Origin: Escherichia coli
GTDB taxonomy: Bacteria; Pseudomonadota; Gammaproteobacteria; Enterobacterales; Enterobacteriaceae
NCBI RefSeq assembly: GCF_965641715.1
Contig: NZ_OZ282453.1
Length of the DNA stretch: 64,000 nt
Direction: 5' to 3' (one strand)
In this document: positions 2,169 through 31,565 of the stretch, piece by piece
Layout: each line of letters begins with the position of its first letter
Position numbering within the stretch: the stretch's first letter is position 1
Position numbers and translations under genes: made by a program
Notes under the pieces: model-generated
What the model was told of the DNA's origin: nothing
The model's input: only the letters and a program-made list of their open reading frames with translations
Database searches by the model: none

Positions 2169-3068
2169 ATGAAAATCGATCTTAATCTTTTACCCATTTT
2201 TATCGCGGTAGCAGAAGAAAGTAATTTTAGTAAAGCCGCCGCACGACTGGGCGTTACCCGTTCAGCGGTCAGTCAGGGAATAAGACGCCTTGAAGATGCA
2301 TTCGGGACAATGCTTGTAATGCGGACCACGCGCTCAGTTAATTTGACGGAAGCGGGAGAACGGCTGCATAAATCGTTGTCATTACCTTTATCCGGTATTG
2401 AGACAGCGTTCGAAGAGATGGTTTCTGATCATGTACCACGTGGACTTCTCAGAATCGCAGTGACGTCAATAGCTGAAGAATTTCTTTCAGGTCCGCTAAT
2501 CGCTTCGTTTGCAGCAGCCAATCCAGCCGTTACGCTTGATATTGTTGTCACGGATGAGGAATTCGATATCGTGGCCGCAGGTTACGATGCTGGCGTAAGG
2601 CTCGGAGAGGTCATTGAAAAAGACATGATTGCTGTGCCCCTTACCGGCAGTCAGCGTGAAATGGTCGTTGCCTCTCCCTCCTATCTCGCAGCCAACAGCA
2701 CACCTGTTCATCCGCGTGAACTTGTGAATCATAAGTGTATCGGCTGGCGTCAGTCCCCGGAGGTTGCGCCTTATCGCTGGCCATTTGAAGAAAACGGGAG
2801 AGCTTTCGACCTTGCGATTGAACCGCAGATTACGACTAATGATCTGCGTCTGATGTTGAGGCTGGCTCTTGCCGGCGGAGGAATAACAATTGCCACTCAG
2901 GAAACTTTCAGGCCGTATATTGAAAGCGGTAAGCTTGTATCTCTGCTTGATGACTTTCTTCCACAATTTCCGGGCTTCTATCTGTATTTCCCACAGCGTC
3001 GCAATATTGCACCAAAGCTCCGCGCCCTGATTGACCACGTCAAGGAATGGCGGCAGCAATTGGCTTAA
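2169..3068 (+). CDS. LysR-type transcriptional regulator
   Basis: N-terminal HTH (FSKAAARLGVTRSAVSQGIRRLE) and LysR substrate-binding domain; divergent from the SDR gene. Confidence 0.85.
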   Translation: MKIDLNLLPIFIAVAEESNFSKAAARLGVTRSAVSQGIRRLEDAFGTMLVMRTTRSVNLTEAGERLHKSLSLPLSGIETAFEEMVSDHVPRGLLRIAVTSIAEEFLSGPLIASFAAANPAVTLDIVVTDEEFDIVAAGYDAGVRLGEVIEKDMIAVPLTGSQREMVVASPSYLAANSTPVHPRELVNHKCIGWRQSPEVAPYRWPFEENGRAFDLAIEPQITTNDLRLMLRLALAGGGITIATQETFRPYIESGKLVSLLDDFLPQFPGFYLYFPQRRNIAPKLRALIDHVKEWRQQLA

Positions 3069-3193
3069 ATGTCTGCACCTGCATTGCCTGATGTCAGAAC
3101 AGTATTTTGATTAATTGCCAGGGTTACAATGGCATAAATACGGCACAGGAGGAAACGTGGTGTATTTAAATATGGGGTAACTACTTGATTTAA

Positions 3194-3391: not shown

Positions 3392-4621
3392 TTATGCTGG
3401 CCAATCCCACTGCTGATAGGCAGAGAATAGGCGCGTGAGCTCAGCAGGCGCAAGAATATCAACAATATTAGCTCTGTAGCTATGCGATTTACCTAATGGA
3501 ACATTTTCGAAATGATTAGCTTGATAAGGATTAAAATCGTGAAGCTCACCTAATGTTGAGATATCGGTATTAATAGTTTTAAGCCAAGAAACAAGAATTA
3601 CTTTTGCCCCTGTTCTCTGTATGTAAGCTCTTGCCGATTCAAAACTATAGCCTCGAGTTGTTATATCATCTATAAGAAGTACTGTTTTACCAGGGCCTAA
3701 AGGTGGTTTTTTATAGGTAGTTCTAGGATTTCTGTGTGGCTGAGAATTAAGACAAATTGTATTAAGTTGATTGCAATGGTCAATTGCAACTCCCTCATTT
3801 CTTGCTTTTTGAGATTTTTTGGAAGTCGTATGCCTTAAAATAAGATCTGGGATATACGTCTTGCGAAAACATTTTCCAAATATTGAAATCGCTTCATCCA
3901 TGATATTATTCCCATATCCTTGCTTATGCCCTGGATAAACACTAACATAATTAATCATCTTATGAATGCCACTAAAATAGAGACTGGATATTAAGGCACT
4001 CGTCCAAAATTCAGGATGGCCTAATCCATGTTTAGCAGCAGCACGAGCATCTTCAGAGTAAAGAGTATACTCTTCCTTCATGGTGCTGAAAGGAGCAAGT
4101 GCATAGAAATTAAAATCACCATCGTGAATTTCATGACACCAAAGATGCTCTCTTAAACAGAAGGTATCTATAAATCTAGCAATATCTTTAGGGGTTGAAA
4201 ACTCGAAACCATAATCTGTTTTGTCTGCCCACCATGTAGCTCTTAAAAAGAGCAACTCACCATTAACTGCTGTTTGCATGTCGTTTATCGAAGCACCAAT
4301 GTACAAAGTTTCTGTACTTTCCCAACCCATCAAATCAAGGACATATTTTGTAGCATCCGCAGTTGGCTTCCCTGGAATGCTCTTATCTTTCGCTCGACAA
4401 AGATATTTAAATTCTCCCCAATGCTTTTGTAACACATCCTCTAAAGGGGTTCTTTCATCTCCGACAACCCAACCCCTGTTAGTGAATACAACAAACTCGA
4501 TCTTTTTAGTTCTGAAATATCTAATTAATTTATCTACCTCTGCAAAGATTTCGCTATCGATCTTTCCCTTAGGCACAAGAATATCTTCAACACTAAGAAT
4601 CACACCCTTAATTTTGCTCAT
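3392..4621 (-). CDS. satellite cargo: protein with N-terminal Rossmann-like (possibly degenerate HAD-like) domain and C-terminal type I phosphoribosyltransferase domain; ShosT-like candidate
   Basis: PRTase signature VLLIDDITTRG near C-terminus; N-terminal YIGASINDMQTAVNG resembles HAD motif IV; AT-rich; 10-nt gap to upstream gene. Confidence 0.55.
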   Translation of the reverse strand: MSKIKGVILSVEDILVPKGKIDSEIFAEVDKLIRYFRTKKIEFVVFTNRGWVVGDERTPLEDVLQKHWGEFKYLCRAKDKSIPGKPTADATKYVLDLMGWESTETLYIGASINDMQTAVNGELLFLRATWWADKTDYGFEFSTPKDIARFIDTFCLREHLWCHEIHDGDFNFYALAPFSTMKEEYTLYSEDARAAAKHGLGHPEFWTSALISSLYFSGIHKMINYVSVYPGHKQGYGNNIMDEAISIFGKCFRKTYIPDLILRHTTSKKSQKARNEGVAIDHCNQLNTICLNSQPHRNPRTTYKKPPLGPGKTVLLIDDITTRGYSFESARAYIQRTGAKVILVSWLKTINTDISTLGELHDFNPYQANHFENVPLGKSHSYRANIVDILAPAELTRLFSAYQQWDWPA

Positions 4622-4631
4622 TTCATCTTCC

Positions 4632-5696
4632 TTAGAGATCTAAGCTCTGCTGTATCGGCTGTGCTTTTAAATCATGATTATTATTCAAAATATAATTACT
4701 CATCTCATTCAATTCAAAAGGCATTAAAAAAGATAAAGAATTTCTATTTTCTTCAGCAAACTTCAATTCTGGTCTACTTTCATACGTAGTAGGAAGATAT
4801 GGACTCGCTATCTTTTTTGCATACTTAAAAGCATAATCAACAGTATGTGATGTTCCACTTTTAATATTCCATTCGACTGGTATTAGTGAATCACATAAAG
4901 CAGCCTGGATTCTGTTACGCCTTACAAAATTTTCTGCGCTATATGTTTGTTCAGGTAGATACTCGGTAACGATAGCCCCACCATTAGAAACTATTGCTCG
5001 ATATAACTCTTTAGAACCTTTCGGATACTCGACAAAAATCCCATTACCCAATACCGCAATAGTTGGAATGCCATATCTCAGCGATTCATAATGACAACAT
5101 TGATCTATTCCTGTCGCCAAACCACTGACTGTTGAAACATCTTTAGAATATAGAGAAGAAACAATCAGTTTTACTAGAAAAATACCATCATCCGTTGGCT
5201 TTCGTGTCCCCACAATTGCAACAGATTTCTTATTAAGAAGTTCATAATTACCATGAACAAAAATCCAAAATGGCGGATCGCTTATGTTCTTTAATGATTG
5301 AGGAAATGTAGCCTGATCATAAAAGGTGAGCACAATACCATTTTTATTGAGTTCACGAGCTCTCTCCAGTCCCTTAGACCAAAGGTCTTGTTGAAATGTT
5401 TCCCAAGATATATTTTTAGGCAAGGAAACTCTTAGATATCCTGCCAAGGCATCAGCTGTATTATCTTTTAATATATTCTTAAATCCAATTTTGGATTGAT
5501 AGATTTTGCGAAGCGTCCAGTAACCAACCCCCTTTAGACAAGTTAAGGCAAGAAACGCAATAATTTCATTTTTCCAAAACTCTCTAACTTCAGTGTAATC
5601 TTTATATTCCATTTTACGTTTGCCTTTTAGATTACAACCCGTACTCAACACAAAAAATTTAGAAAATTGTTGCCAAAAGCATATTATAAATAGCAT
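4632..5696 (-). CDS. satellite cargo: DprA/Smf-like (SLOG-type Rossmann) protein; ShosA-like candidate; probable start at MEYKDY (5612)
   Basis: DprA core motifs VAIVGTRKPT, GLATGID, TIAVLGNGI, YPKGSKELYRAI, FVRRNRIQAAL; AT-rich. Confidence 0.55.
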   Translation of the reverse strand: MLFIICFWQQFSKFFVLSTGCNLKGKRKMEYKDYTEVREFWKNEIIAFLALTCLKGVGYWTLRKIYQSKIGFKNILKDNTADALAGYLRVSLPKNISWETFQQDLWSKGLERARELNKNGIVLTFYDQATFPQSLKNISDPPFWIFVHGNYELLNKKSVAIVGTRKPTDDGIFLVKLIVSSLYSKDVSTVSGLATGIDQCCHYESLRYGIPTIAVLGNGIFVEYPKGSKELYRAIVSNGGAIVTEYLPEQTYSAENFVRRNRIQAALCDSLIPVEWNIKSGTSHTVDYAFKYAKKIASPYLPTTYESRPELKFAEENRNSLSFLMPFELNEMSNYILNNNHDLKAQPIQQSLDL

Positions 5697-7998: not shown

Positions 7999-10671
7999 TT
8001 AACCCGGCACCTCGCTGTTGAAGACATAGAGCCTGCGGGGATTCATCTCTGGCGGGCGAATGGTTGTCTGGAGTTTGCCATCAGTGGAGGGCAGCAGGTA
8101 TCCACGATCTGCGCACAGACGCGCCACCTTGCGCGGGTCAAATCCCCTGCAGATTTCTTTCCAGCCGGACGGCATGACATAAAACGTAGTGACAGCTTCC
8201 GTGCCCTGCGCGGTACTGCCTTTCTCCACCCTGCGCCAGCCCACCATATTGGCGGGGCGGTTGCGCTCGTCATACCAGTCTGCAAAGCGGCTGTACTGAT
8301 TCGCGGTAAAGAAACTGCGAACCTGCTCCAGTGCGGCGATATCTTCCTGATTGGCGGTGTGCCCGCGCTCTTTCAGCCATGCGTTCAGGCAGACGCGGGT
8401 TGCCCGCAATGCTTCACCCTCAGGCCAGCCGGTGATACCCTGACGGGTTGCCAGTTCACCTGCCATCGCCACCAGTGCAAAGCGGTTCACAGCCCGGCCC
8501 ACCTGATTGCCTGCATCTTTCGGAGTCAGGGCGGCAGCATATTCCTTCATCAGCGATTTTGCCTGTGCCGTTAGTCCGTTAAGATCAGCGGTCAGTGCTT
8601 TCAGCCACTCCCGGAACGGCGAACCGTAGTAGCAGGACGTGGCCCATTCAAGATGCTCTGCCAGAGCCTTGCCGCTGTCGAAGCCGTGCAGCTCCTCAAA
8701 AACGCCAAACTTCCCGGAATCGCTGGGGATCTGGATCATCCTGACTTCCATCCCGGCAAAAGTACGCTCACCGGCCTTTGCCGCATGTTCGGTCAGAGAT
8801 AACTCGCCAGTTGAAAAGAACAACAGGCGCCACTGCTTACGGGTACGCAGTTCACCGTCCGTACCGGCACGACCCTTGCCCTGACCGTTTGCCAGCATGT
8901 AGGCGATATTGCCTGCCTCGCGTCCGTCAACTTCCCGGATCTCATCAAGCATCATGGCGGCATCGTTGCGGCGGCTGGCACATCCCTCCAGCGCGTTGCC
9001 GGTGGCCCGCCATGTCTGCCAGTAGTCAGGCCCGCCGCAGACGGAGGTTGCCGCTTTCATGGTGGTGGTCTTACCGTCTGTCGATTCCCCTTTGAGGTGG
9101 TAGCCGCCGCCGTCCATACCAACCAGCCGTAACAGTGGTGCAGCAAAGGCCAGGCTGACAGCAAATGCCACGCGGGAGTTGCCGGTACAGTAGCGGGATA
9201 CGTTCTCCCGCCATTCCTCTGTTGTGCCCGACACGCGGAAATCACGCCCCTGCACGGAAGTGGTCTGGAGAATGACACCCTCTGCACCTTCACCGCTGAC
9301 CTCATCCTGCAGGACGTAAACCTGACCATGCCAGCCAGTACGGCTGACGCAGGTCACGCGACGTTCCGGTTTACACAGTGAGATATATTCCATCAGGCGT
9401 GCGCGTGCCTCACCGGTGGTGCTGATATAAGACAGCCCGTTAACAAGCAGTACCCGGCGCAGTTCCTCACCACTGCCGCTCAGCATTTCCATCGGCATCG
9501 CCCAGCGGCGACGCTCACCCCACGTATCTTCCCATTCCAGCAGTCGTCCGAAGTTACCGCCATCGGCATCGCAGGTGATTGCCGTCACGCGCAGCGGGCT
9601 GCATATTTTGACGTTCTGGATCTCCGTCTCACCGTTGCGCTGTACCTGCTTTTCATACCAGAGATATTCCTGGGTAAGACGGAACCCGTGCGGCAGTTGC
9701 GTGCGGCCTTCCCCGCACAGTACCAGACCGTTGCGAAAGGCTTCACGGGCACGGGTAATACCGTGCTCCCGATGAAAGTCATTCCAGTCAGCCTTAATCT
9801 CTCCTGGTGGCAGCGTCATCCAGCCGCCAACAGCTTTTGCCGCCCGTTCAGCAAAGGCTCTGCCGGGATTCTCCCCCCCGTCCTGAAAATCGTTATCACC
9901 GGCGATGATAATTTTTACCTCAGGCCAGCGTGCCCGCAGCGACTGCGCCACATTGGGCAGGTTGCCCGCAGATATGGCAGCCACTACGCATCCGGCAGTG
10001 AGCTGGCTTACCGTCAGCGCCGTAGCGTAACCTTCGGTAATCACCACCTGTACCGGTGGTTCAGACGGTAACGGGCTGAGCGACACAAACGCGCCTTTCA
10101 TCGTGCTGCCGGGCAGTATGCTTTTTTCACCCGTCGGGGCGATAAGCTGTGCACCGGTCACGGCTCCGGTGTTGGTCGTGAGTGGTAACAGCAGGGAACC
10201 AGCAGGAAAATCCTTACCGCTGATATGCTGCACGCTTCCGGTCAGAGAGGCCGGGTATCCGGCGAACCCTTTTCCTGCCAGATAGGCACTTTCTCCCGTG
10301 TGGCTCTCTTTCATCAGCGTCGCCACGGTAAGGCTCATGTCGCGTTTAGGGGCTTTTTGTCTGGCAGGCTTAACAGGCAGTTCCTGCACATCCGGCACAT
10401 TAAGCACCTGCGCCACCTGCTGCGCAGCCTTTCTGACGTTGTAGCCGGTTACGAGCTTAACCAGATCCAGACCGTCACCATTGCCACACTGGCTGCAGAT
10501 CCACGTCCCGCGCCCGTCAAGGTCATCGAGGCGAAAACGATCCTTGCCCCCACATTTCGGGCAGGGACCGTGCCTGCCGTTTTCAGGTACATCAATACGC
10601 AGCATATGCAGAATAACGGGCCATTTCCCCCGCGCGGCGGCTGAAATCTGCGTAACCGTCTGTATTGTCAT
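7999..10671 (-). CDS. P4 alpha-like primase/helicase (zinc finger + toprim + D5-type NTPase)
   Basis: N-terminal CPKCGG...CSQCG, Walker A GESTDGKTT, 890 aa. Confidence 0.8.
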   Translation of the reverse strand: MTIQTVTQISAAARGKWPVILHMLRIDVPENGRHGPCPKCGGKDRFRLDDLDGRGTWICSQCGNGDGLDLVKLVTGYNVRKAAQQVAQVLNVPDVQELPVKPARQKAPKRDMSLTVATLMKESHTGESAYLAGKGFAGYPASLTGSVQHISGKDFPAGSLLLPLTTNTGAVTGAQLIAPTGEKSILPGSTMKGAFVSLSPLPSEPPVQVVITEGYATALTVSQLTAGCVVAAISAGNLPNVAQSLRARWPEVKIIIAGDNDFQDGGENPGRAFAERAAKAVGGWMTLPPGEIKADWNDFHREHGITRAREAFRNGLVLCGEGRTQLPHGFRLTQEYLWYEKQVQRNGETEIQNVKICSPLRVTAITCDADGGNFGRLLEWEDTWGERRRWAMPMEMLSGSGEELRRVLLVNGLSYISTTGEARARLMEYISLCKPERRVTCVSRTGWHGQVYVLQDEVSGEGAEGVILQTTSVQGRDFRVSGTTEEWRENVSRYCTGNSRVAFAVSLAFAAPLLRLVGMDGGGYHLKGESTDGKTTTMKAATSVCGGPDYWQTWRATGNALEGCASRRNDAAMMLDEIREVDGREAGNIAYMLANGQGKGRAGTDGELRTRKQWRLLFFSTGELSLTEHAAKAGERTFAGMEVRMIQIPSDSGKFGVFEELHGFDSGKALAEHLEWATSCYYGSPFREWLKALTADLNGLTAQAKSLMKEYAAALTPKDAGNQVGRAVNRFALVAMAGELATRQGITGWPEGEALRATRVCLNAWLKERGHTANQEDIAALEQVRSFFTANQYSRFADWYDERNRPANMVGWRRVEKGSTAQGTEAVTTFYVMPSGWKEICRGFDPRKVARLCADRGYLLPSTDGKLQTTIRPPEMNPRRLYVFNSEVPG

Positions 10672-11051
10672 ACTTCCCCCTGATACAACGTCACACCAGT
10701 ACTGCAGAAGTCATCAAAGGTCGCCGGAAGCGTGCGGTACATCTCCGCCATTACTTCACAGCCGCGCGCGGTCAGTACCGGCGGCGCGGTCAGCAGTGAC
10801 GGCTCCAGCATGTCAGTCAGCAGTGCCAGCGCGGCAGCGGCGCCCTGTGCTTCGCCGTACTCGTTAATCAGTGCGCACTCGATATGCAGCGCAATGGCCA
10901 TTTCAATACGCTCCACCGTCAGGCTGTGCGGACCATACTGATCACTGCCAGTTTCGTTCAGCATTTTCTGCCGCCATGCTGAAGCAATAGCCCGCCGGTA
11001 AAGCGCGGTTGTCATTTCTGCCGGGAAAATGGAAACCTGCGGCTGGTTCAT
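10668..11051 (-). CDS. hypothetical satellite protein
   Basis: ORF translationally coupled (4-nt overlap) to primase gene. Confidence 0.4.
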   Translation of the reverse strand: MNQPQVSIFPAEMTTALYRRAIASAWRQKMLNETGSDQYGPHSLTVERIEMAIALHIECALINEYGEAQGAAAALALLTDMLEPSLLTAPPVLTARGCEVMAEMYRTLPATFDDFCSTGVTLYQGEV

Positions 11052-11332
11052 CTGGCACCTCCTTCAATCAGTGCACAGCTGTGCGCAATATCCGTCAAAT
11101 CTGCCCGCAGGTACTCCATCAGCGCGGCGACACCATGCGCACAGCCAGCGTCCAGTGCTCCGGCCTGAGACGGGTATTCAGAAAAGAGAAGCTGGAGCAT
11201 GTCGCAGGCATTTCTTGCGCGGGTCAGCTTTCCGAAACTGTCCTCTGACAACCCATAGGCAAAAGCACCGGTATTGTGTTTTTCAGGCAAAGTGTGGCCC
11301 TGAGCACCGTTGTGCCCGTTTGAAATATTCAT
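11048..11332 (-). CDS. hypothetical satellite protein
   Basis: ORF coupled by 4-nt overlap to downstream gene. Confidence 0.35.
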   Translation of the reverse strand: MNISNGHNGAQGHTLPEKHNTGAFAYGLSEDSFGKLTRARNACDMLQLLFSEYPSQAGALDAGCAHGVAALMEYLRADLTDIAHSCALIEGGAR

Positions 11333-11363: not shown

Positions 11364-11724
11364 TCAGAGAAACTTTGAATAGTGACCGTCGTCAGGCTCA
11401 GCAGAACGCCGTATGCTACGCTCCCGCCAGCGGATAAATAGCACAGACGGATGCAGTGTCAGCGGGCCGGAACCACTACCGCCTGCAGGAGCTGGTGCAG
11501 GCTTAAAGAGCGGTACATCAAACAGGCGCGTATACCGCTGTTCAAACCATGCCAGAGGGCAGGAAGAAAGCTGGTTGTCGCTGTCATGACGTATCAGCAC
11601 TTCACAGCTGAATTCAGGATTAACCAGCGCCACAGAGGGCGAGGCTTCAATTAATCGGATAATCGTGACCGTCCAGCCACGTTCATGCTGCCAGCGTTCG
11701 CCGGGGTGCGGATAATTACGCATG
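11364..11724 (-). CDS. hypothetical satellite protein (start MRNYPHPG at 11724)
   Basis: start ATG overlaps stop of upstream small ORF (ATGCGTAA). Confidence 0.35.
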
Positions 11725-11892
11725 TTCACCTCCGCAGGGAATGCGCCCGGCAAAGCTCAGTACATAATCCGGGGCAAGTCTTCGCCGCGCTGACCGCTCG
11801 TTATCTGCGGTGATCCTTAACATCACAGGACGGGCATTGCGTTGACTGCGGTTGATCGCCGCAAATAACCAGGTACACTTCTGTTTAGCCAT
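11716..11892 (-). CDS. small protein, possibly host cell division inhibitor Icd-like (58 aa)
   Basis: hand-translated MAKQKCTWLFAAINRSQRNARPVMLRITADNERSARRRLAPDYVLSFAGRIPCGGEHA; below the 60-aa cutoff of the ORF track. Confidence 0.35.
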   Translation of the reverse strand: MAKQKCTWLFAAINRSQRNARPVMLRITADNERSARRRLAPDYVLSFAGRIPCGGEHA

Positions 11893-11983
11893 CTTCGTTA
11901 CCTCTTATAACGGTTGGTTAAATGCCCGATTTGTGTTCCCGCACAATCGGGCATTGCTTTTACAAGCGAACTATACTTACAAT

Positions 11984-12027
11984 GGTAATTACCATGTAGT
12001 CATCATATTCCAGGGTAATTACCATGT
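11984..12027. promoter_or_regulatory. Tandem operator-like repeats GGTAATTACCATGT (each containing palindrome GGTAATTACC), 30 bp apart
   Basis: copies at 11984-11997 and 12014-12027; second overlaps the ATG of the small + strand ORF. Confidence 0.45.
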
Positions 12028-12197
12028 CAACACCACAAGAGAAACGTTCCCCACCATTCCAAATGCGTCTTACCGACGATTTTAGGTTGCAACTCGAAAA
12101 AGAAATGCGCAAAGATGGAGATAGCGCGTTGGCAACTTGGATTAAAAGAATTTTACGTAAAGAACTACAATCACGCGGGATTGACCCTAAAGGTTAA
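12024..12197 (+). CDS. small ribbon-helix-helix-like DNA-binding protein (57 aa)
   Basis: hand-translated MSTPQEKRSPPFQMRLTDDFRLQLEKEMRKDGDSALATWIKRILRKELQSRGIDPKG; strand-helix-helix pattern; only + strand gene in the satellite. Confidence 0.4.
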   Translation: MSTPQEKRSPPFQMRLTDDFRLQLEKEMRKDGDSALATWIKRILRKELQSRGIDPKG

Positions 12198-12229: not shown

Positions 12230-12520
12230 TTAGGGAGTAGGTGATAATCTATTCCCTTTATTAATTGCTCTTGCCTTATTTCTCATCCCCTCAAACTGTT
12301 GACCTGAGTTTTCTTCAAACCCATCTCGCCACTTATAATAATCAGCAGCGCGCCATCGGGACATCCGACCTATTTTTATAGGTTTTGGAAAGCGATTCAG
12401 AGAAATCAATCGATAAATCCATTTGTCACTTAATAAACAATCGGAAGTAATAAACTTCATATCGATCAGAGAATCCATTGAAGGTCGTTGCAAAGTAGTA
12501 TTATCATGTTTAGATAACAT
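12230..12520 (-). CDS. alpA: AlpA-family phage transcriptional regulator
   Basis: KFITSDCLLSDKWIYRLISLNRFPKPIKIGRMSRWRAADYYKWRDGF matches AlpA-type HTH proteins. Confidence 0.7.
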   Translation of the reverse strand: MLSKHDNTTLQRPSMDSLIDMKFITSDCLLSDKWIYRLISLNRFPKPIKIGRMSRWRAADYYKWRDGFEENSGQQFEGMRNKARAINKGNRLSPTP

Positions 12521-12645: not shown

Positions 12646-13470
12646 TTAGTTAAACTTAATGTTTTTCATGCAACTACGTAGCAAGCTAACAACAGTATCA
12701 TAGCTCAAAGGTGGTTCTCCGGTCTTAGGCCAGAACTCACTGGCATGTTGAAAAAGATAATCAGCTATCGCTGCTGGACTCTCTCTTCTTAGCCTCATAT
12801 CACGATGATAGAGCGAAATAATAGCCATGAGTATTTCAGTTCGAGGAACAGCATGTTTTTGTTTTTGCGCCTCAGATTGTGATTTATATTTATTGGCGTT
12901 TTTTATCCGTTTTTGTTCGCATAAGACTATATCAATGAATTTTTGAATCTGTACCTTTGTAATCCACAAAACCTCAAAAAGATAATAATTTTCTTTTTCA
13001 TCATAATTTACATAAAGAATTACCTTACAATTTATATTAGGCGTACCCGCCAGTAGAAAATGAATAGGCCAGGAATCCGGTTGCCCCTCATGCTTAACTA
13101 ACAGATCTTTATATTCATAATCAACAGCCCATAAACCGGATATAAAGCATCGAATAAAACCATTTTTATCAATTAAATTATTTTCATCAGGGATTCTTAT
13201 AGAGCTTAAGTCTGACAACATAATATTGCCATTTCTATCTCGTGGTAAATATTTCAGATTAGATAAGAACTCATCCAGTTGACCATCAATCTTCAAACCA
13301 CATGAAACATCATACTCATCATCATGGAATTCCATGCATAGCTCTACATCTCGTTCTCTGGCAAACCAGAGTATATCCTTTTCACTACAACCAATTTTTT
13401 CTGAAGCTTCATCCAACTGGTAGTAATCTCTGAGCAGAGAATCAGTATTATTAATTTTTAAAATATTCAT
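12646..13470 (-). CDS. hypothetical AT-rich protein of unknown function, translationally coupled to integrase
   Basis: 274 aa; ATGA start/stop overlap with int; low GC relative to flanks; no motif recognised. Confidence 0.4.
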   Translation of the reverse strand: MNILKINNTDSLLRDYYQLDEASEKIGCSEKDILWFARERDVELCMEFHDDEYDVSCGLKIDGQLDEFLSNLKYLPRDRNGNIMLSDLSSIRIPDENNLIDKNGFIRCFISGLWAVDYEYKDLLVKHEGQPDSWPIHFLLAGTPNINCKVILYVNYDEKENYYLFEVLWITKVQIQKFIDIVLCEQKRIKNANKYKSQSEAQKQKHAVPRTEILMAIISLYHRDMRLRRESPAAIADYLFQHASEFWPKTGEPPLSYDTVVSLLRSCMKNIKFN

Positions 13471-14726
13471 TTATGAGTACCAATTAGCTCAGATAAATAA
13501 TTAGCATACCATTGCATCATTTCTCTTCTCCCTTCGAGATATTGGGCATGGTTATAAATTCCACGAATAGAGTTTTTGTCCGAATGAGCAAGCTGGGTTT
13601 CAATCCAAGCGCTGTTAAATCCTTTCTCATGTAGAATTGTACTCATCGTATGCCTGAAACCATGTCCCGTAACACGCCCTGCATATCCAATACGTTTAAA
13701 CACCTGATTGATGCTTGCTTCACTCATAAATTTGCTAGGATCGTTGCGTCCAGGGAACATCAGCGGGTAGTTCCCAGTTAGTTCTTTCAAACTTTTGAGA
13801 TGGGATAATGCTTGTTTTGGTAACGGGACAATATGGCTCCTACGCATTTTCATACGTTCTTTTGGGATCTCCCACACCGCATTATCAAAATCCACCTCTC
13901 GCCACTCACCTGCTCGTAGTTCTCCAGTTCGTAGACCTGTCAGGATAAGTAAATGCGCCCCCAACAATACAATTGGACTTCCTGAATAAGAATTAAGGGC
14001 ATTAAAGAACTCCGGTAGTTCGTTGGCTTTGAGGAATGGATAGTGGACTGCTTCATGTCCTTGCATCGCACTGGCAAGATCCGGTGCCGGATTGTAGATT
14101 GCCCTACCCGTTACGATGGCATAGCGAAAAACTTCACCGCATCGCTGACGGACTTTCTTCGCTTTCTCCATAGCGCCTCGAGCTTCTATCAACCTCAGAA
14201 CTTCAAGCAGTTCAAGGGGCTGAATATCAGCTATAGGTCTGTGCCCAATATGCGGAAAAATGTCTTTCTCAAATGCCTCAATGATGTCGGAAGCATAGCC
14301 CTCAGACCATTTGGATGATTTCATTTTGTGCCACTCTAACGCCACTTCTCTGAATGGGTTAAGTGTCTCAATCGCTGCGTTTAAAGCCTGCTTTTTGGCT
14401 TTTTTGACTTCGCCGGGATCTTCACCTGCTGCGAGTAGTTTCTTTGCGTCTTCTCGTTTTTGTCTGGCATCAGCAAGTGTGACTGTTGGATAAACACCAA
14501 AGGACAATCGTTTCTCTTTACCAGCAAAACGGTATTTCATACGCCAGTAACGCGAGCCATTAGGTTCGACCTGAAGGTATAGGCCACCTCCATCAAACAG
14601 CTTATAGCTCTTCTCTTTTCCTTTCGCAGCTTCAACCTTGCGGGCATTCAGCATCATTGGGGGCACATTTCCTAGACCGAACAGAACATGCCCCTGATTG
14701 TGCCCCCAACCGCGTGTTGATTTCAA
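13467..14726 (-). CDS. int: P4-type tyrosine integrase (probable start at MLNARKV, 14654)
   Basis: KEKSYKLFDGGGLYLQVEPNGSRYWRMKYRFAGKEK N-terminus and C-terminal HGFRHT...Y catalytic region; adjacent to tRNA-Thr. Confidence 0.9.
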   Translation of the reverse strand: MKSTRGWGHNQGHVLFGLGNVPPMMLNARKVEAAKGKEKSYKLFDGGGLYLQVEPNGSRYWRMKYRFAGKEKRLSFGVYPTVTLADARQKREDAKKLLAAGEDPGEVKKAKKQALNAAIETLNPFREVALEWHKMKSSKWSEGYASDIIEAFEKDIFPHIGHRPIADIQPLELLEVLRLIEARGAMEKAKKVRQRCGEVFRYAIVTGRAIYNPAPDLASAMQGHEAVHYPFLKANELPEFFNALNSYSGSPIVLLGAHLLILTGLRTGELRAGEWREVDFDNAVWEIPKERMKMRRSHIVPLPKQALSHLKSLKELTGNYPLMFPGRNDPSKFMSEASINQVFKRIGYAGRVTGHGFRHTMSTILHEKGFNSAWIETQLAHSDKNSIRGIYNHAQYLEGRREMMQWYANYLSELIGTHK

Positions 14727-31384: not shown

Positions 31385-31565
31385 GCGCATGGCCCCCGGC
31401 GAAGATTGATTTAAGAATTTTCAGGTCGGATGCGGCGTGAACGCATTATTCGGCCTACGGTTCGCGTACAGATTTGTAGGCATGATAAGACGCGTCAGCG
31501 TCGCATCAGGCATCAGCGCACAAATGCCGGATGCGGCGTAAACGTCTTATCCGGCCTACGCCAGA
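31385..31565. repeat. REP/BIME cluster (about 3 REP units in alternating orientation)
   Basis: gccggatgcggcgtgaacgc..., gtaggcatgataagacgcgtcagcgtcgcatcaggcat, gccggatgcggcgtaaacgtcttatccggcctacg. Confidence 0.8.

What the first reader, a model, noticed from the sequence alone, without database searches (positions are those of the whole stretch)
11364..11892. Overlapping small genes upstream of the primase block, including a possible Icd-like division inhibitor
A 58-aa ORF (MAKQKCTWLFAAINRS...) stops within ATGCGTAA, where the next gene starts. From memory the small protein resembles the Icd-like proteins annotated in P4-type prophages. It is not in the ORF track.
Basis: inference. Interest (0 to 1): 0.3.

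Follow-up and report, generated by a model that had tools for sequence, protein, structure and literature searches.

The report
Satellite Kil/Icd gene with antisense RNA
The 58-codon gene is real and already annotated as an "Icd-like" gene (it is the counterpart of the Kil toxin of satellite phage P4), but opposite its start lies a conserved, unannotated small antisense RNA resembling the SymR antitoxin, which probably keeps the gene and the replication operon behind it switched off.

Summary
A 58-aa ORF (11716-11892, minus strand) ends in ATGCGTAA, where a 119-aa ORF (11364-11723) starts. Both show third-codon-position substitution patterns typical of real genes.

The 58-aa protein scores 84 bits against NCBIfam phage_ICD_like (cutoff 25), and RefSeq already annotates it that way. 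More precisely, it is the orthologue of P4 Kil (53% identity). It has the same position as first cistron of the operon that ends in the primase, and the same 8-nt overlap with the next gene. As posed, the finding is therefore ordinary.

The regulation differs from P4 and P1. The C4/CI and IsrK/seqA immunity RNAs are absent. Instead there is a divergent Arc-like repressor gene, two palindromic operators on a near-consensus promoter, and a predicted ~75-nt cis-antisense RNA (11887 to about 11961, plus strand) covering the Icd-like SD and AUG.

The antisense RNA is supported by:
- covariation (10 of 15 terminator-stem pairs change on both sides);
- strand-specific G·U pairs (43 versus 9);
- an in-register promoter kept inside the coding sequence in 21 loci;
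- reciprocal sub-threshold matches with SymR, in the same 5' register.

No expression data were available. Toxicity, translational block and polarity are inferred.

The parts
11716..11892 (-). Icd-like / Kil-orthologue gene (58 aa), first cistron of the satellite's early (replication) operon
   Evidence: NF033153 at 84 bits. 53% identity to P4 Kil. Codon-position substitution pattern 2/4/25 and 5/6/23. In-frame TAA 15 nt upstream, so no Eta-like extension. AF2 pLDDT 87.8 with a beta-beta-alpha-beta fold.
11900..11906 (-). Shine-Dalgarno sequence (AAGAGGT) of the Icd-like gene. It sits in the loop of a small hairpin (CGUUA/UAACG).
   Evidence: Sequence. Conserved GAGG in all leaders.
11716..11723 (-). 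ATGCGTAA stop/start overlap that couples the Icd-like gene to the next gene
   Evidence: P4 kil/epsilon has GTGCGTAA. Family C-termini '..GG.HA*' encode the SD and ATG of the next gene.
11727..11733 (-). GGAGGTG Shine-Dalgarno sequence of the 119-aa gene, embedded in the last codons of the Icd-like gene
11364..11723 (-). 119-aa gene of unknown function at the position P4 epsilon occupies. It has a small beta-rich N-domain (DUF1653/DUF4222-like), a disordered linker and a conserved C-terminal motif.
   Evidence: phrog_30862 at 1.5e-78. Codon pattern 5/6/24. No similarity to epsilon. AF2 pLDDT 70.9. Foldseek matches to DUF1653/DUF4222 proteins.
11887..11961 (+). Predicted ~75-nt cis-antisense RNA (SymR-like). 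The 5' end lies 3 nt beyond the Icd-like start codon. Hairpin 1 (about 11895-11913) carries the anti-SD CCUC in its loop. This is followed by the UUGGUUA box (11914-11920), a terminator-like hairpin (11921-11955) and a U-run (11958-11961).
   Evidence: Rfam SymR at 31.6 bits, E=0.0016. Covariation. Strand test. Model R1 at 93 bits here and 52-56 bits in out-of-sample loci. Fold z-score -4.97.
11852..11879 (+). Predicted antisense promoter inside the Icd-like coding sequence: -35 TTGATC (11852-11857), 16-nt spacer, -10 TACACT (11874-11879), then 7 nt to the A at 11887
   Evidence: Conserved in register in 19 leaders and in L113; L114 has an extended -10 instead. Codon 6 varies only in its middle base (TGT/TTT/TCT). 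Absent from P4 kil. The K-12 symR promoter has the same geometry.
12002..12030 (-). Early-operon promoter: TTGACA (12030-12025), 17 nt, TATGAT (12007-12002)
   Evidence: 11 of 12 consensus matches. Equivalent promoters in homologous loci.
11984..12027 (.). Two identical palindromic operators GGTAATTACCATGT (11984-11997 and 12014-12027), lying at about +1 and at -35 of the early promoter
   Evidence: Every homologous locus has its own pair of repeats at the same places, and these change together with the divergent repressor sequence.
12024..12197 (+). Divergent 57-aa probable Arc/Mnt-type ribbon-helix-helix repressor. Its start codon lies inside the -35 of the early promoter.
   Evidence: PHROG Arc-like at E=0.0021. 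Profile A5 hits Arc 1b28 over full length at E=0.03, Mnt at 0.36 and HP0222 at 0.58. The support is weak but consistent.
7999..11332 (-). Rest of the operon: 94-aa gene (11048-11332), DUF5375 gene (10668-11051) and TOPRIM/DUF927 primase (7999-10671)
   Evidence: Same order as P4 orf151, orf106 (DUF5375) and alpha.

Best explanation
The window carries a P4-like satellite prophage integrated at tRNA-Thr. The 58-aa ORF is its Kil/Icd-like gene. This is a small, probably toxic protein that forms the first translated cistron of the early operon: Icd-like, then a 119-aa gene, a 94-aa gene, DUF5375 and the primase. It is translationally coupled to the next gene through the ATGCGTAA overlap, with the next gene's SD inside its own last codons.

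In P4 and P1, translation of this cistron is controlled by a processed trans-acting RNA (CI/C4). This lineage appears to use two other layers:

1. A divergently encoded Arc-like repressor binds two palindromic operators placed at -35 and +1 of a near-consensus promoter.
2. A ~75-nt cis-antisense RNA is made from a promoter inside the Icd-like coding sequence. It starts 3 nt past the start codon, presents the anti-SD in a hairpin loop, and ends in a terminator-like hairpin. By pairing with the leader it should block ribosome binding to the Icd-like gene, as SymR does for symE.

By analogy with P4 kil and P1 icd, the block would also reduce expression of the downstream replication genes.

What is shown: the ORFs are real, family membership and P4 synteny hold, C4/IsrK are absent, the RNA structure is conserved with covariation and strand-specific G·U pairs, and a promoter-like element is conserved in register.

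What is inferred: that the RNA is transcribed, that it blocks translation, polarity on downstream genes, toxicity of the protein, and binding of the repressor to the operators.
For: Gene identity:
- NF033153 scores 84 bits, and P4 Kil and P1 Icd pass the same model.
- 53% identity to P4 Kil.
- Synteny with P4: kil, 8-nt overlap, epsilon, orf151, orf106 (DUF5375), alpha.
- Purifying selection acts in frame.

No RNA immunity of the P4/P1 type:
- Rfam finds C4 (74.9 bits) and isrK (60.8 bits) in P4.
- It finds neither in the window, even at E<=10, nor in L113/L114 nor in 11 other loci.

Repressor and operators:
- The promoter matches the consensus at 11 of 12 positions.
- Two identical palindromes lie at -35 and +1.
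- At least 9 operator types change together with the repressor sequence.
- The repressor profile resembles Arc/Mnt.

Antisense RNA:
- 86.8% of cells are paired, and 14 pairs change on both sides (10 of 15 in the terminator stem).
- 0 of 500 shuffles reach the observed values, and slid-register controls give 34-44% paired.
- The antisense fold is more stable in 18 of 19 leaders (mean ddG -5.1 kcal/mol; G·U pairs 43 versus 9). The difference exceeds the composition controls in 19 of 19.
- The promoter TTGAT(C/T)-16-TA.A.T-7-AGCCAU is conserved in register even where the encoded peptide changes.
- Model R1 finds the element in two loci not used to build it, at 56 and 52 bits in the same register.
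- Rfam SymR hits the window at E=0.0016. R1 hits the true K-12 SymR over its full length, starting exactly at the annotated 5' end, at 28.2 bits.
- The symR promoter has the same -10, 7 nt, AG.CAU geometry.

Precedents:
- SymR overlaps the symE RBS and start codon and blocks translation (PMC4147584).
- Translation of P4 kil/eta prevents termination (PMC10111431, citing Forti 1999).
- The P1 record notes that icd is 'apparently required for expression of ant'.
Against: - No transcript data were available, so the RNA is a prediction.
- The antisense promoter matches only 8 of 12 consensus positions and fell below the scan threshold.
- Its conservation is partly confounded by coding constraint.
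- The 19 leaders are related, so the shuffle and Wilcoxon figures overstate independence.
- Composition alone gives a ddG of -1.5 kcal/mol.
- About a quarter of the operator types lack a U-run after the hairpin, so the 3' end, and whether the RNA is a discrete sRNA, is uncertain in those.
- Both SymR matches are far below Rfam's gathering score (31.6 versus 61 bits), and other variants match only weakly or not at all.
- The Icd-like ORF shows no rut-like C>G bias, so Rho-dependent polarity has no direct support here.
- The RHH assignment rests on E-values of 0.002-0.03.
- Toxicity is extrapolated from P1 Icd, P4 Kil and an ECOR61 prophage protein (bioRxiv 10.1101/2023.04.06.535777).
Confidence: 0.6

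Rival explanations
1. The plus-strand transcript is mainly the 5' leader of the repressor mRNA and not a free-standing sRNA. On this view the promoter inside the Icd-like gene is the repressor (maintenance) promoter. It faces the early promoter, as Pc/Pe do in P2 or pL/pR in 186. The hairpin acts as an attenuator, and control works through convergent transcription (interference) as much as through base pairing.
For: - No convincing sigma-70 promoter for the RHH gene lies in the intergenic region.
- Several operator types lack a U-run after the hairpin, so read-through into the RHH gene is expected.
- The hairpin sequence type travels with the operator/RHH type when modules are exchanged behind an identical Icd-like protein.
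Against: - Most types have a U-run right after a very stable hairpin.
- The element resembles the discrete 77-nt SymR in length and register.
- The two readings are not mutually exclusive.
Confidence: 0.25
2. There is no antisense RNA. The conserved hairpin and ACCAA box are elements of the sense mRNA leader (a stabiliser, processing site or translational structure), and the promoter-like hexamers in the coding sequence are by-products of conserved codons. The locus is then simply an Icd-like toxin gene repressed by a protein repressor.
For: - The sense leader also folds better than shuffles (z-score -3.84).
- The ACCAA box could pair with the AUGGCU start region.
- The promoter is weak by consensus.
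- TTGA arises from the conserved Ile-Asn codons.
Against: - G·U pairs number 43 on the antisense strand and 9 on the sense strand, where the same positions are C·A mismatches.
- The antisense fold is more stable in 18 of 19 leaders and beyond composition.
- The -10 is kept as TA.A.T while the overlapping codons change amino acid (C/F/S, N-S-I, N-S-T).
- There are reciprocal hits with SymR in the same register.
Confidence: 0.12
3. The Icd-like gene and its antisense RNA form a self-contained type I toxin-antitoxin (addiction or abortive-infection) module. It stabilises the satellite or kills infected cells, and has no role in gating the replication operon.
For: - The architecture is that of SymE/SymR (PMC4147584).
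- P4 Kil kills on overexpression (PMC10111431).
Against: - The gene is translationally coupled to the next gene through a family-wide overlap.
- It always heads the primase operon.
- In P4 and P1 its translation is what controls downstream expression.
Confidence: 0.2
4. The 58-codon ORF is only a leader cistron. Its translation matters but its product has no function.
For: In P4 and P1 the act of translating kil/icd controls read-through.
Against: - Strong purifying selection acts on the protein (22 synonymous versus 7 non-synonymous codon changes).
- The fold prediction is confident.
- The domain is conserved in 171 cluster representatives, many as the C-terminal module of longer proteins.
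Confidence: 0.05

Closest known systems
P4 Kil (the last 65 codons of eta, formerly the 'cI/ash ORF') in the left operon of satellite phage P4
   Same: - 53% identity.
- First translated cistron after the early promoter.
- 8-nt (A/G)TGCGTAA overlap with the next gene.
- Followed by two small genes, DUF5375 and the primase.
- AlpA/Vis-like gene and integrase lie upstream.
   Different: - Here the gene stands alone, with an in-frame stop 15 nt upstream, and is not nested in an Eta-like ORF.
- No CI (C4) RNA and no seqA (IsrK) element precede it.
- A divergent Arc-like repressor, two operators and an antisense promoter are present instead.
- The two downstream small proteins are unrelated to epsilon and orf151.
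P1 Icd in the immI operon (c4-icd-ant), founder of NCBIfam NF033153
   Same: - Same NCBIfam family.
- A small first cistron whose translation is controlled by an antisense RNA acting at its ribosome-binding region.
- Overlaps the start of the next gene.
   Different: - No direct pairwise similarity.
- P1 uses the processed trans-acting C4 RNA with a/b target sites, and the downstream gene is an antirepressor.
- Here the RNA is cis-encoded on the opposite strand and the downstream genes are replication genes.
SymE/SymR type I toxin-antitoxin locus of E. coli K-12 (Rfam RF01809)
   Same: - The antisense RNA starts 3 nt beyond the start codon of the target gene (AG.CAU).
- The promoter lies inside the target coding sequence with a -10, then 7 nt, then A.
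- Length is about 75-77 nt, with two hairpins.
- The inter-hairpin box is UUG.UUAG and the apical motif is GUGUUG..GCAC.
- Covers the SD and AUG.
- Reciprocal covariance-model hits.
   Different: - Scores are well below Rfam's gathering threshold (31.6 and 28.2 bits).
- The target protein is unrelated: SymE is a 113-aa AbrB-like protein.
- symE is LexA-controlled and monocistronic, while this target heads a satellite replication operon.
P2 C/Cox and 186 CI/Apl switches (convergent promoters, repressor bound to two repeats at the early promoter)
   Same: - A small repressor gene transcribed towards the early promoter from the opposite side.
- Two operator repeats flank the early promoter.
- Many immunity types arise by module exchange.
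   Different: - The repressor here is Arc/Mnt-like.
- The convergent promoter lies inside the first early gene.
- The overlap encodes a structured RNA.

Membership tests
NCBIfam NF033153 phage_ICD_like (Icd-like protein) | Whole-protein score at or above the curated cutoff of 25 bits | tested here: met
   84 bits, residues 6-52 on profile positions 1-47 of 48. P1 Icd scores 52.6 bits and P4 Kil 76.1 bits.
NCBIfam NF033153 phage_ICD_like (Icd-like protein) | Inhibition of host cell division or killing on expression (the property that gives the family its name) | not testable with these tools
   Known only for P1 Icd, P4 Kil and an ECOR61 prophage protein (PMC10111431). No data exist for this protein.
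P4 Kil orthologue (first cistron of the P4-like left operon) | Sequence similarity to P4 Kil | tested here: met
   25 of 47 residues identical, E=4e-16
P4 Kil orthologue (first cistron of the P4-like left operon) | Position: downstream of the AlpA/Vis gene and the early promoter, overlapping the next gene by 8 nt, upstream of DUF5375 and the primase | tested here: met
P4 Kil orthologue (first cistron of the P4-like left operon) | Nested as the C-terminal part of a longer Eta ORF | tested here: not met
   An in-frame TAA lies 15 nt upstream of the ATG, and the upstream DNA is occupied by the divergent RHH gene.
C4/CI RNA immunity (P1 immI, P4 immunity, N15 CA) | C4-family RNA (RF01695) and its target elements (isrK/seqA RF01394, c4-a1b1 RF03163) upstream of the icd/kil gene | tested here: not met
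   Found in P4 at 74.9, 60.8 and 44.1 bits. No hit in the window at gathering threshold or at E<=10, nor in 13 related loci.
Rfam RF01809 SymR | Covariance-model score at or above the gathering score (61 bits) | tested here: not met
   31.6 bits, E=0.0016 at 11887-11958 on the plus strand. L106 scores 25.8 bits, and the other variants fall below E=1.
Rfam RF01809 SymR | Cis-antisense to the SD and start codon of the target gene, with the 5' end 3 nt beyond the start codon and the promoter inside the target coding sequence | tested here: met
   Geometry. Model R1 aligns to the true SymR from its annotated 5' end. Transcription itself was not tested.
Type I toxin-antitoxin system | Antisense RNA that represses translation of a toxic protein | not testable with these tools
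   Complementarity is complete by construction, because the RNA is cis-encoded. Repression and toxicity need experiments.
Ribbon-helix-helix (Arc/Mnt) repressors (the divergent 57-aa protein) | Match to an RHH profile or to solved RHH proteins over the beta-strand and two helices | tested here: inconclusive
   PHROG Arc-like at E=0.0021. Profile A5 hits Arc 1b28 at E=0.03 over its full length, Mnt at 0.36 and HP0222 at 0.58. No Pfam hit above threshold.
P4 epsilon (helper derepression protein), considered for the 119-aa protein | Sequence similarity to epsilon | tested here: not met
   BLASTP E=19. Only the position in the operon is shared.

The most novel reading that the evidence does not exclude
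A clade of P4-like satellites has replaced the trans-acting CI/C4 immunity RNA with a cis-antisense RNA that is evolutionarily related to the SymR antitoxin. The Kil/Icd-like gene would then be a type I toxin whose antisense RNA also gates satellite replication. The same promoter may drive the repressor gene through terminator read-through. SymE/SymR in the K-12 immigration-control region would be a domesticated relative of this mobile regulatory module.
Probability: 0.3. Interest if true: 0.65.

Novelty: new variant of a known kind. Interest (0 to 1): 0.45.

Why it matters

The useful results are two. First, it can now be identified as the Kil cistron of a P4-like satellite. Second, this lineage lacks the textbook RNA immunity of P4. 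It carries instead an unannotated, structurally conserved antisense RNA, present in about 6% of complete E. coli genomes and in Klebsiella, Enterobacter, Salmonella, Citrobacter and Pantoea.

If the RNA is real, three things follow:
- A new RNA family is added to Rfam-type annotation.
- We would see how satellites keep a toxic first cistron and their replication genes silent without CI RNA.
- A satellite control element would be linked to the SymR antitoxin.

It also offers a simple experimental handle (synonymous -10 mutations) for de-repressing such satellites, which often carry defence cargo. This one carries Shosta.

Tried and rejected
- **C4/CI or IsrK RNA upstream of the gene.** I searched at the gathering threshold and at E<=10. 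Both are absent, while the P4 positive control works.
- **Direct homology to P1 Icd.** There is no BLASTP alignment, only the shared profile.
- **The 119-aa and 94-aa proteins as epsilon and orf151 homologues.** No similarity was found.
- **Defence-system models for the small proteins.** No PADLOC hits.
- **Fold of the 119-aa protein.** Only DUF1653/DUF4222-type phage domains of unknown function matched.
- **N-terminal extensions of longer family members.** No Pfam domain except Phage_ASH in one case.
- **Rho-utilisation-like C>G bias in the Icd-like ORF.** None was seen.
- **A sigma-70 promoter for the RHH gene in the intergenic region.** None reached the scan threshold.
- **The 16-nt direct repeat 11831-46 / 11948-63 and the inverted repeat I2.** These are not conserved in other loci and are treated as chance.
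- **The genome contigs pattern scan.** It returned only two loci. About 72 of the 85 viral contigs pattern hits were chance matches without an Icd-like ORF.
- **The primary P4 papers (PMC176756, PMC94026).** These are not held in the library, so the facts on P4 kil/eta are taken from PMC10111431 and from the P4 record.
Full report
**1. The observation**

The window is E. coli chromosome. It is 100% identical over 2 kb to strain PSJ-36. It carries a P4-like satellite prophage inserted at tRNA-Thr next to proA.

On the minus strand the element reads:
- integrase (13467-14726);
- a 274-aa hypothetical gene;
- an AlpA-like gene (12230-12520);
- a 58-aa ORF (11716-11892);
- a 119-aa ORF (11364-11723);
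- a 94-aa ORF (11048-11332);
- a DUF5375 gene (10668-11051);
- a TOPRIM/DUF927 primase (7999-10671);
- then sid-position, psu and ogr/delta-like genes.

The 58-aa ORF ends in ATGCGTAA (11723-11716). In that sequence the ATG starts the 119-aa ORF, and a GGAGGTG Shine-Dalgarno sequence lies four bases upstream.

Both ORFs are real genes. Against the Klebsiella and Enterobacter copies, substitutions fall 2/4/25 and 5/6/23 on codon positions 1/2/3 for the 58-aa ORF and 5/6/24 for the 119-aa ORF. The pattern vanishes in the other frames. The junction ATGCGTA(A/G) is conserved.

**2. What the 58-aa protein is**

It matches NCBIfam NF033153 'host cell division inhibitor Icd-like protein' at 84 bits against a cutoff of 25. 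RefSeq annotates it under that name (WP_001118612.1).

The nearest characterised relative is not P1 Icd, with which there is no pairwise alignment. P1 Icd does pass the same model at 52.6 bits. The nearest relative is the C-terminal 65 residues of the old P4 'cI/ash ORF', which is P4 Kil: 53% identity, E=4e-16, 76 bits on NF033153.

According to PMC10111431, which summarises Forti et al. 1999:
- Kil is the truncated form of Eta, translated from the constitutive promoter.
- It functions in cell killing.
- Translation of this region prevents premature termination of the left operon.

The P1 record notes that icd is 'apparently required for expression of ant'.

Synteny is exact. P4 has kil, an 8-nt overlap (GTGCGTAA), epsilon, orf151, orf106 (DUF5375) and alpha. 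The window has Icd-like, an 8-nt overlap, the 119-aa gene, the 94-aa gene, DUF5375 and the primase. The two middle proteins are unrelated to epsilon and orf151.

A deep search finds 171 cluster representatives of the module. Most carry it as the C-terminal part of 150-680-aa proteins, which is Eta-like. Here an in-frame TAA 15 nt upstream makes the gene stand-alone.

Family C-termini commonly read '..GG.HA*'. This is the coding image of GGAGG..cATGcgTAA, so coupling to the next gene is a family trait.

AlphaFold gives a confident beta-beta-alpha-beta fold (pLDDT 87.8) with no informative structural neighbour.

**3. What is different here: the regulation**

In P4, Rfam finds the CI RNA (C4, 74.9 bits) and seqA (isrK, 60.8 bits) between the promoter and kil. 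In the window neither is found, even at E<=10.

Instead, the 131-bp interval upstream of the gene holds a near-consensus minus-strand promoter: TTGACA, 17 nt, TATGAT, matching 11 of 12 positions. Two identical palindromes, GGTAATTACCATGT, lie at its -35 and at about +1.

A divergent 57-aa gene (12024-12197, plus strand) has its ATG inside the -35. Its product looks like an Arc/Mnt-type ribbon-helix-helix protein:
- PHROG Arc-like, E=0.002;
- a family profile hits Arc over its full length at E=0.03, and also Mnt and HP0222.

This support is weak but consistent.

Related loci from Klebsiella, Enterobacter, Salmonella, Citrobacter, Pantoea and metagenomes keep the architecture. They carry at least nine different pairs of operator repeats, and these change together with the small divergent protein. 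One identical Icd-like protein sits behind four different operator modules. This is the pattern expected of exchangeable protein-repressor immunity types.

**4. A conserved antisense RNA**

A permissive Rfam scan gave one notable hit: SymR (RF01809) at 11887-11958 on the plus strand, 31.6 bits, E=0.0016, below the gathering score of 61. This position is antisense to the SD and start codon of the Icd-like gene. Five lines of evidence make it more than a curiosity.

(i) *Covariation.* A hairpin at 11921-11955 is conserved in 19 unique leaders, with at least six unrelated stem sequences. On the antisense alignment:
- 86.8% of cells are paired;
- 14 pairs change on both sides, 10 of the 15 in this stem;
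- none of 500 column shuffles reaches the observed values;
- slid registers give 34-44% paired.

(ii) *Strand.* The hairpin is more stable on the plus (antisense) strand in 18 of 19 leaders, with a mean ddG of -5.1 kcal/mol. G·U pairs number 43 on that strand against 9 on the sense strand, where the same positions are C·A mismatches. Composition explains only -1.5 kcal/mol, and all 19 observed values lie beyond their shuffle mean. The sequences are related, so these numbers are not independent tests.

(iii) *Promoter.* Inside the coding sequence, all 19 leaders keep TTGAT(C/T) (TTGAAC in L007), 16 nt, TA(C/A/G)A(C/A)T, 7 nt, then the A of AGCCAU. In the window these are 11852-11857, 11874-11879 and 11887.
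- Codon 6 varies between Cys, Phe and Ser as TGT/TTT/TCT. Only the base opposite the least important -10 position changes.
- Where the peptide is N-S-I, the -10 is TAGAAT.
- P4 kil has nothing comparable.

(iv) *Out-of-sample loci.* A covariance model built from 17 leaders (R1) finds the element in two more distant loci that were not used to build it. L114 scores 56.4 bits and L113 52 bits, with Icd-like proteins 53-60% identical. Both hits are on the antisense strand in the same register. L113 has TTGATT-16-TACACT-7-AGCCAU and a new compensated stem. L114 has an extended -10, TGGTACTAT. Neither locus has C4.

(v) *Reciprocity with SymR.* R1 hits the genuine K-12 SymR over its full length at 28.2 bits (E about 2e-5, rough). 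The hit starts exactly at the annotated 5' end, L112:2836. The next best unrelated hit scores 12 bits, and P4 and P1 immI give nothing. SymR also starts 3 nt beyond its target's start codon. Its promoter reads TAGAAT, 7 nt, AGUCAU, against TAGAAT, 7 nt, AGCCAU in L108.

The predicted RNA is about 75 nt (11887 to about 11961). It has:
- a first hairpin that shows the anti-SD CCUC in its loop;
- a conserved UUGGUYA box, which can pair with the 5' AGCCA (invariant, so untestable by covariation);
- a terminator-like hairpin;
- in about three quarters of the operator types, a U-run.

**5. How it most likely works**

*Shown:* the anatomy described above.

*From established knowledge:*
- SymR overlaps the symE RBS and start codon and acts by blocking translation (PMC4147584).
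- In P4 and P1, translation of kil/icd is the step controlled by the immunity RNA, and it is needed for downstream expression (PMC10111431).

*Inferred:*
- In the prophage state the Arc-like repressor shuts the early promoter.
- Any escaping mRNA is bound by the antisense RNA, so the Icd-like cistron is not translated.
- Because the next gene is coupled to it, and possibly because untranslated RNA is terminated, the replication genes stay off.
- When the promoter is de-repressed, mRNA outnumbers the antisense RNA and the operon, toxin included, is expressed.

I found no rut-like C>G bias in the ORF, so Rho-dependent polarity is only an analogy.

An important variant is that the antisense promoter also feeds the repressor gene by read-through. 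No good promoter for that gene was found, and some operator types lack the U-run. That would make this a convergent-promoter switch like those of P2 and 186.

Toxicity of the protein is extrapolated from P1 Icd, from P4 Kil, and from an Icd-like protein proposed as the cell-death effector of an ECOR61 prophage system that includes a primase (bioRxiv 10.1101/2023.04.06.535777).

**6. The second gene**

The 119-aa protein belongs to a narrow enterobacterial family of hypothetical proteins (phrog_30862). It models as a small beta-rich N-domain, a disordered linker and a conserved C-terminal motif. The N-domain resembles DUF1653/DUF4222 phage domains of unknown function.

It sits where P4 has epsilon, the helper-derepression protein, but shares no sequence with it. 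An epsilon-like role is a guess based on position only.

**7. Comparison, novelty and verdict**

As posed, the finding is correct and already known: it is an annotated Icd-like gene in a P4-like satellite. It is best filed as a P4 Kil orthologue. That filing fails one feature (nesting in Eta) and lacks the C4/IsrK RNA module that accompanies kil/icd in P4, P1 and N15.

The regulatory module found here is an Arc-like repressor, paired operators and a SymR-like cis-antisense RNA. I found no report of it in the paper library, and RefSeq lists no ncRNA at this position. The module occurs in 332 of 5,426 complete E. coli genomes.

I rate it a new variant of a known kind: antisense control of a toxic first cistron. 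Interest is moderate, and it depends on showing that the RNA is made.

Noticed in passing
window 3392-5612 (-): The satellite's cargo between the ogr/delta-like gene and the left end is a Shosta anti-phage system. ShosT (phosphoribosyltransferase, 3392-4621) scores 314 bits and ShosA (DprA-like, 4632-5612) scores 301 bits in PADLOC. RefSeq names them only 'phosphoribosyl transferase' and 'DNA-processing protein DprA'.
   Followed up: partly
window 12646-13470 (-): A 274-aa AT-rich ORF lies between the integrase and the AlpA-like gene, and its end overlaps the integrase start. It has no Pfam, NCBIfam, PHROG or PADLOC match. Equivalent but differently sized ORFs (290-326 aa) occupy this slot in related satellites, so it may be a second variable cargo position.
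   Followed up: no
L098, L099, L100, L102 (700 bp upstream of the Icd-like gene): One identical 59-aa Icd-like protein (P0014) sits behind four different repressor/operator modules. The exchange boundary falls at the hairpin/ACCAA box, and the hairpin sequence type travels with the operator type. At least nine operator types were seen in all.
   Followed up: partly
L002 (P4) 8168-8584: The Pfam family Phage_ASH and the PHROG label 'transcriptional repressor' for these proteins go back to the old P4 'cI/ash ORF'. That region overlies the CI RNA gene (C4, 8420-8507), and its real protein product is Eta/Kil. The 'repressor' label on Icd-like proteins in phage records is therefore a historical artefact.
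   Followed up: partly
window 31479-31556 (-): A naRNA4 (CssrE, REP-derived nucleoid-associated RNA) match above the Rfam gathering score: 74.1 bits against 59.5.
   Followed up: no
window 12232-12257 (+): A terminator-like hairpin with a T-run lies directly after the divergent repressor gene and overlaps the 3' end of the AlpA-like gene on the other strand.
   Followed up: no
window 11831-11846 and 11948-11963 (+): A 16-nt direct repeat (CGGGCATTGC...) links the inside of the Icd-like ORF with the 3' arm of the leader hairpin. It is not conserved in other loci and is probably chance.
   Followed up: yes
L010 (Salmonella CP073333) 3001-3168: The Icd-like gene there is frame-shifted (MAKQKCTAICCDQPQ...) and the junction with the next gene is disrupted, yet the antisense element still scores 71 bits with R1. 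This looks like a decaying copy that keeps the RNA.
   Followed up: partly
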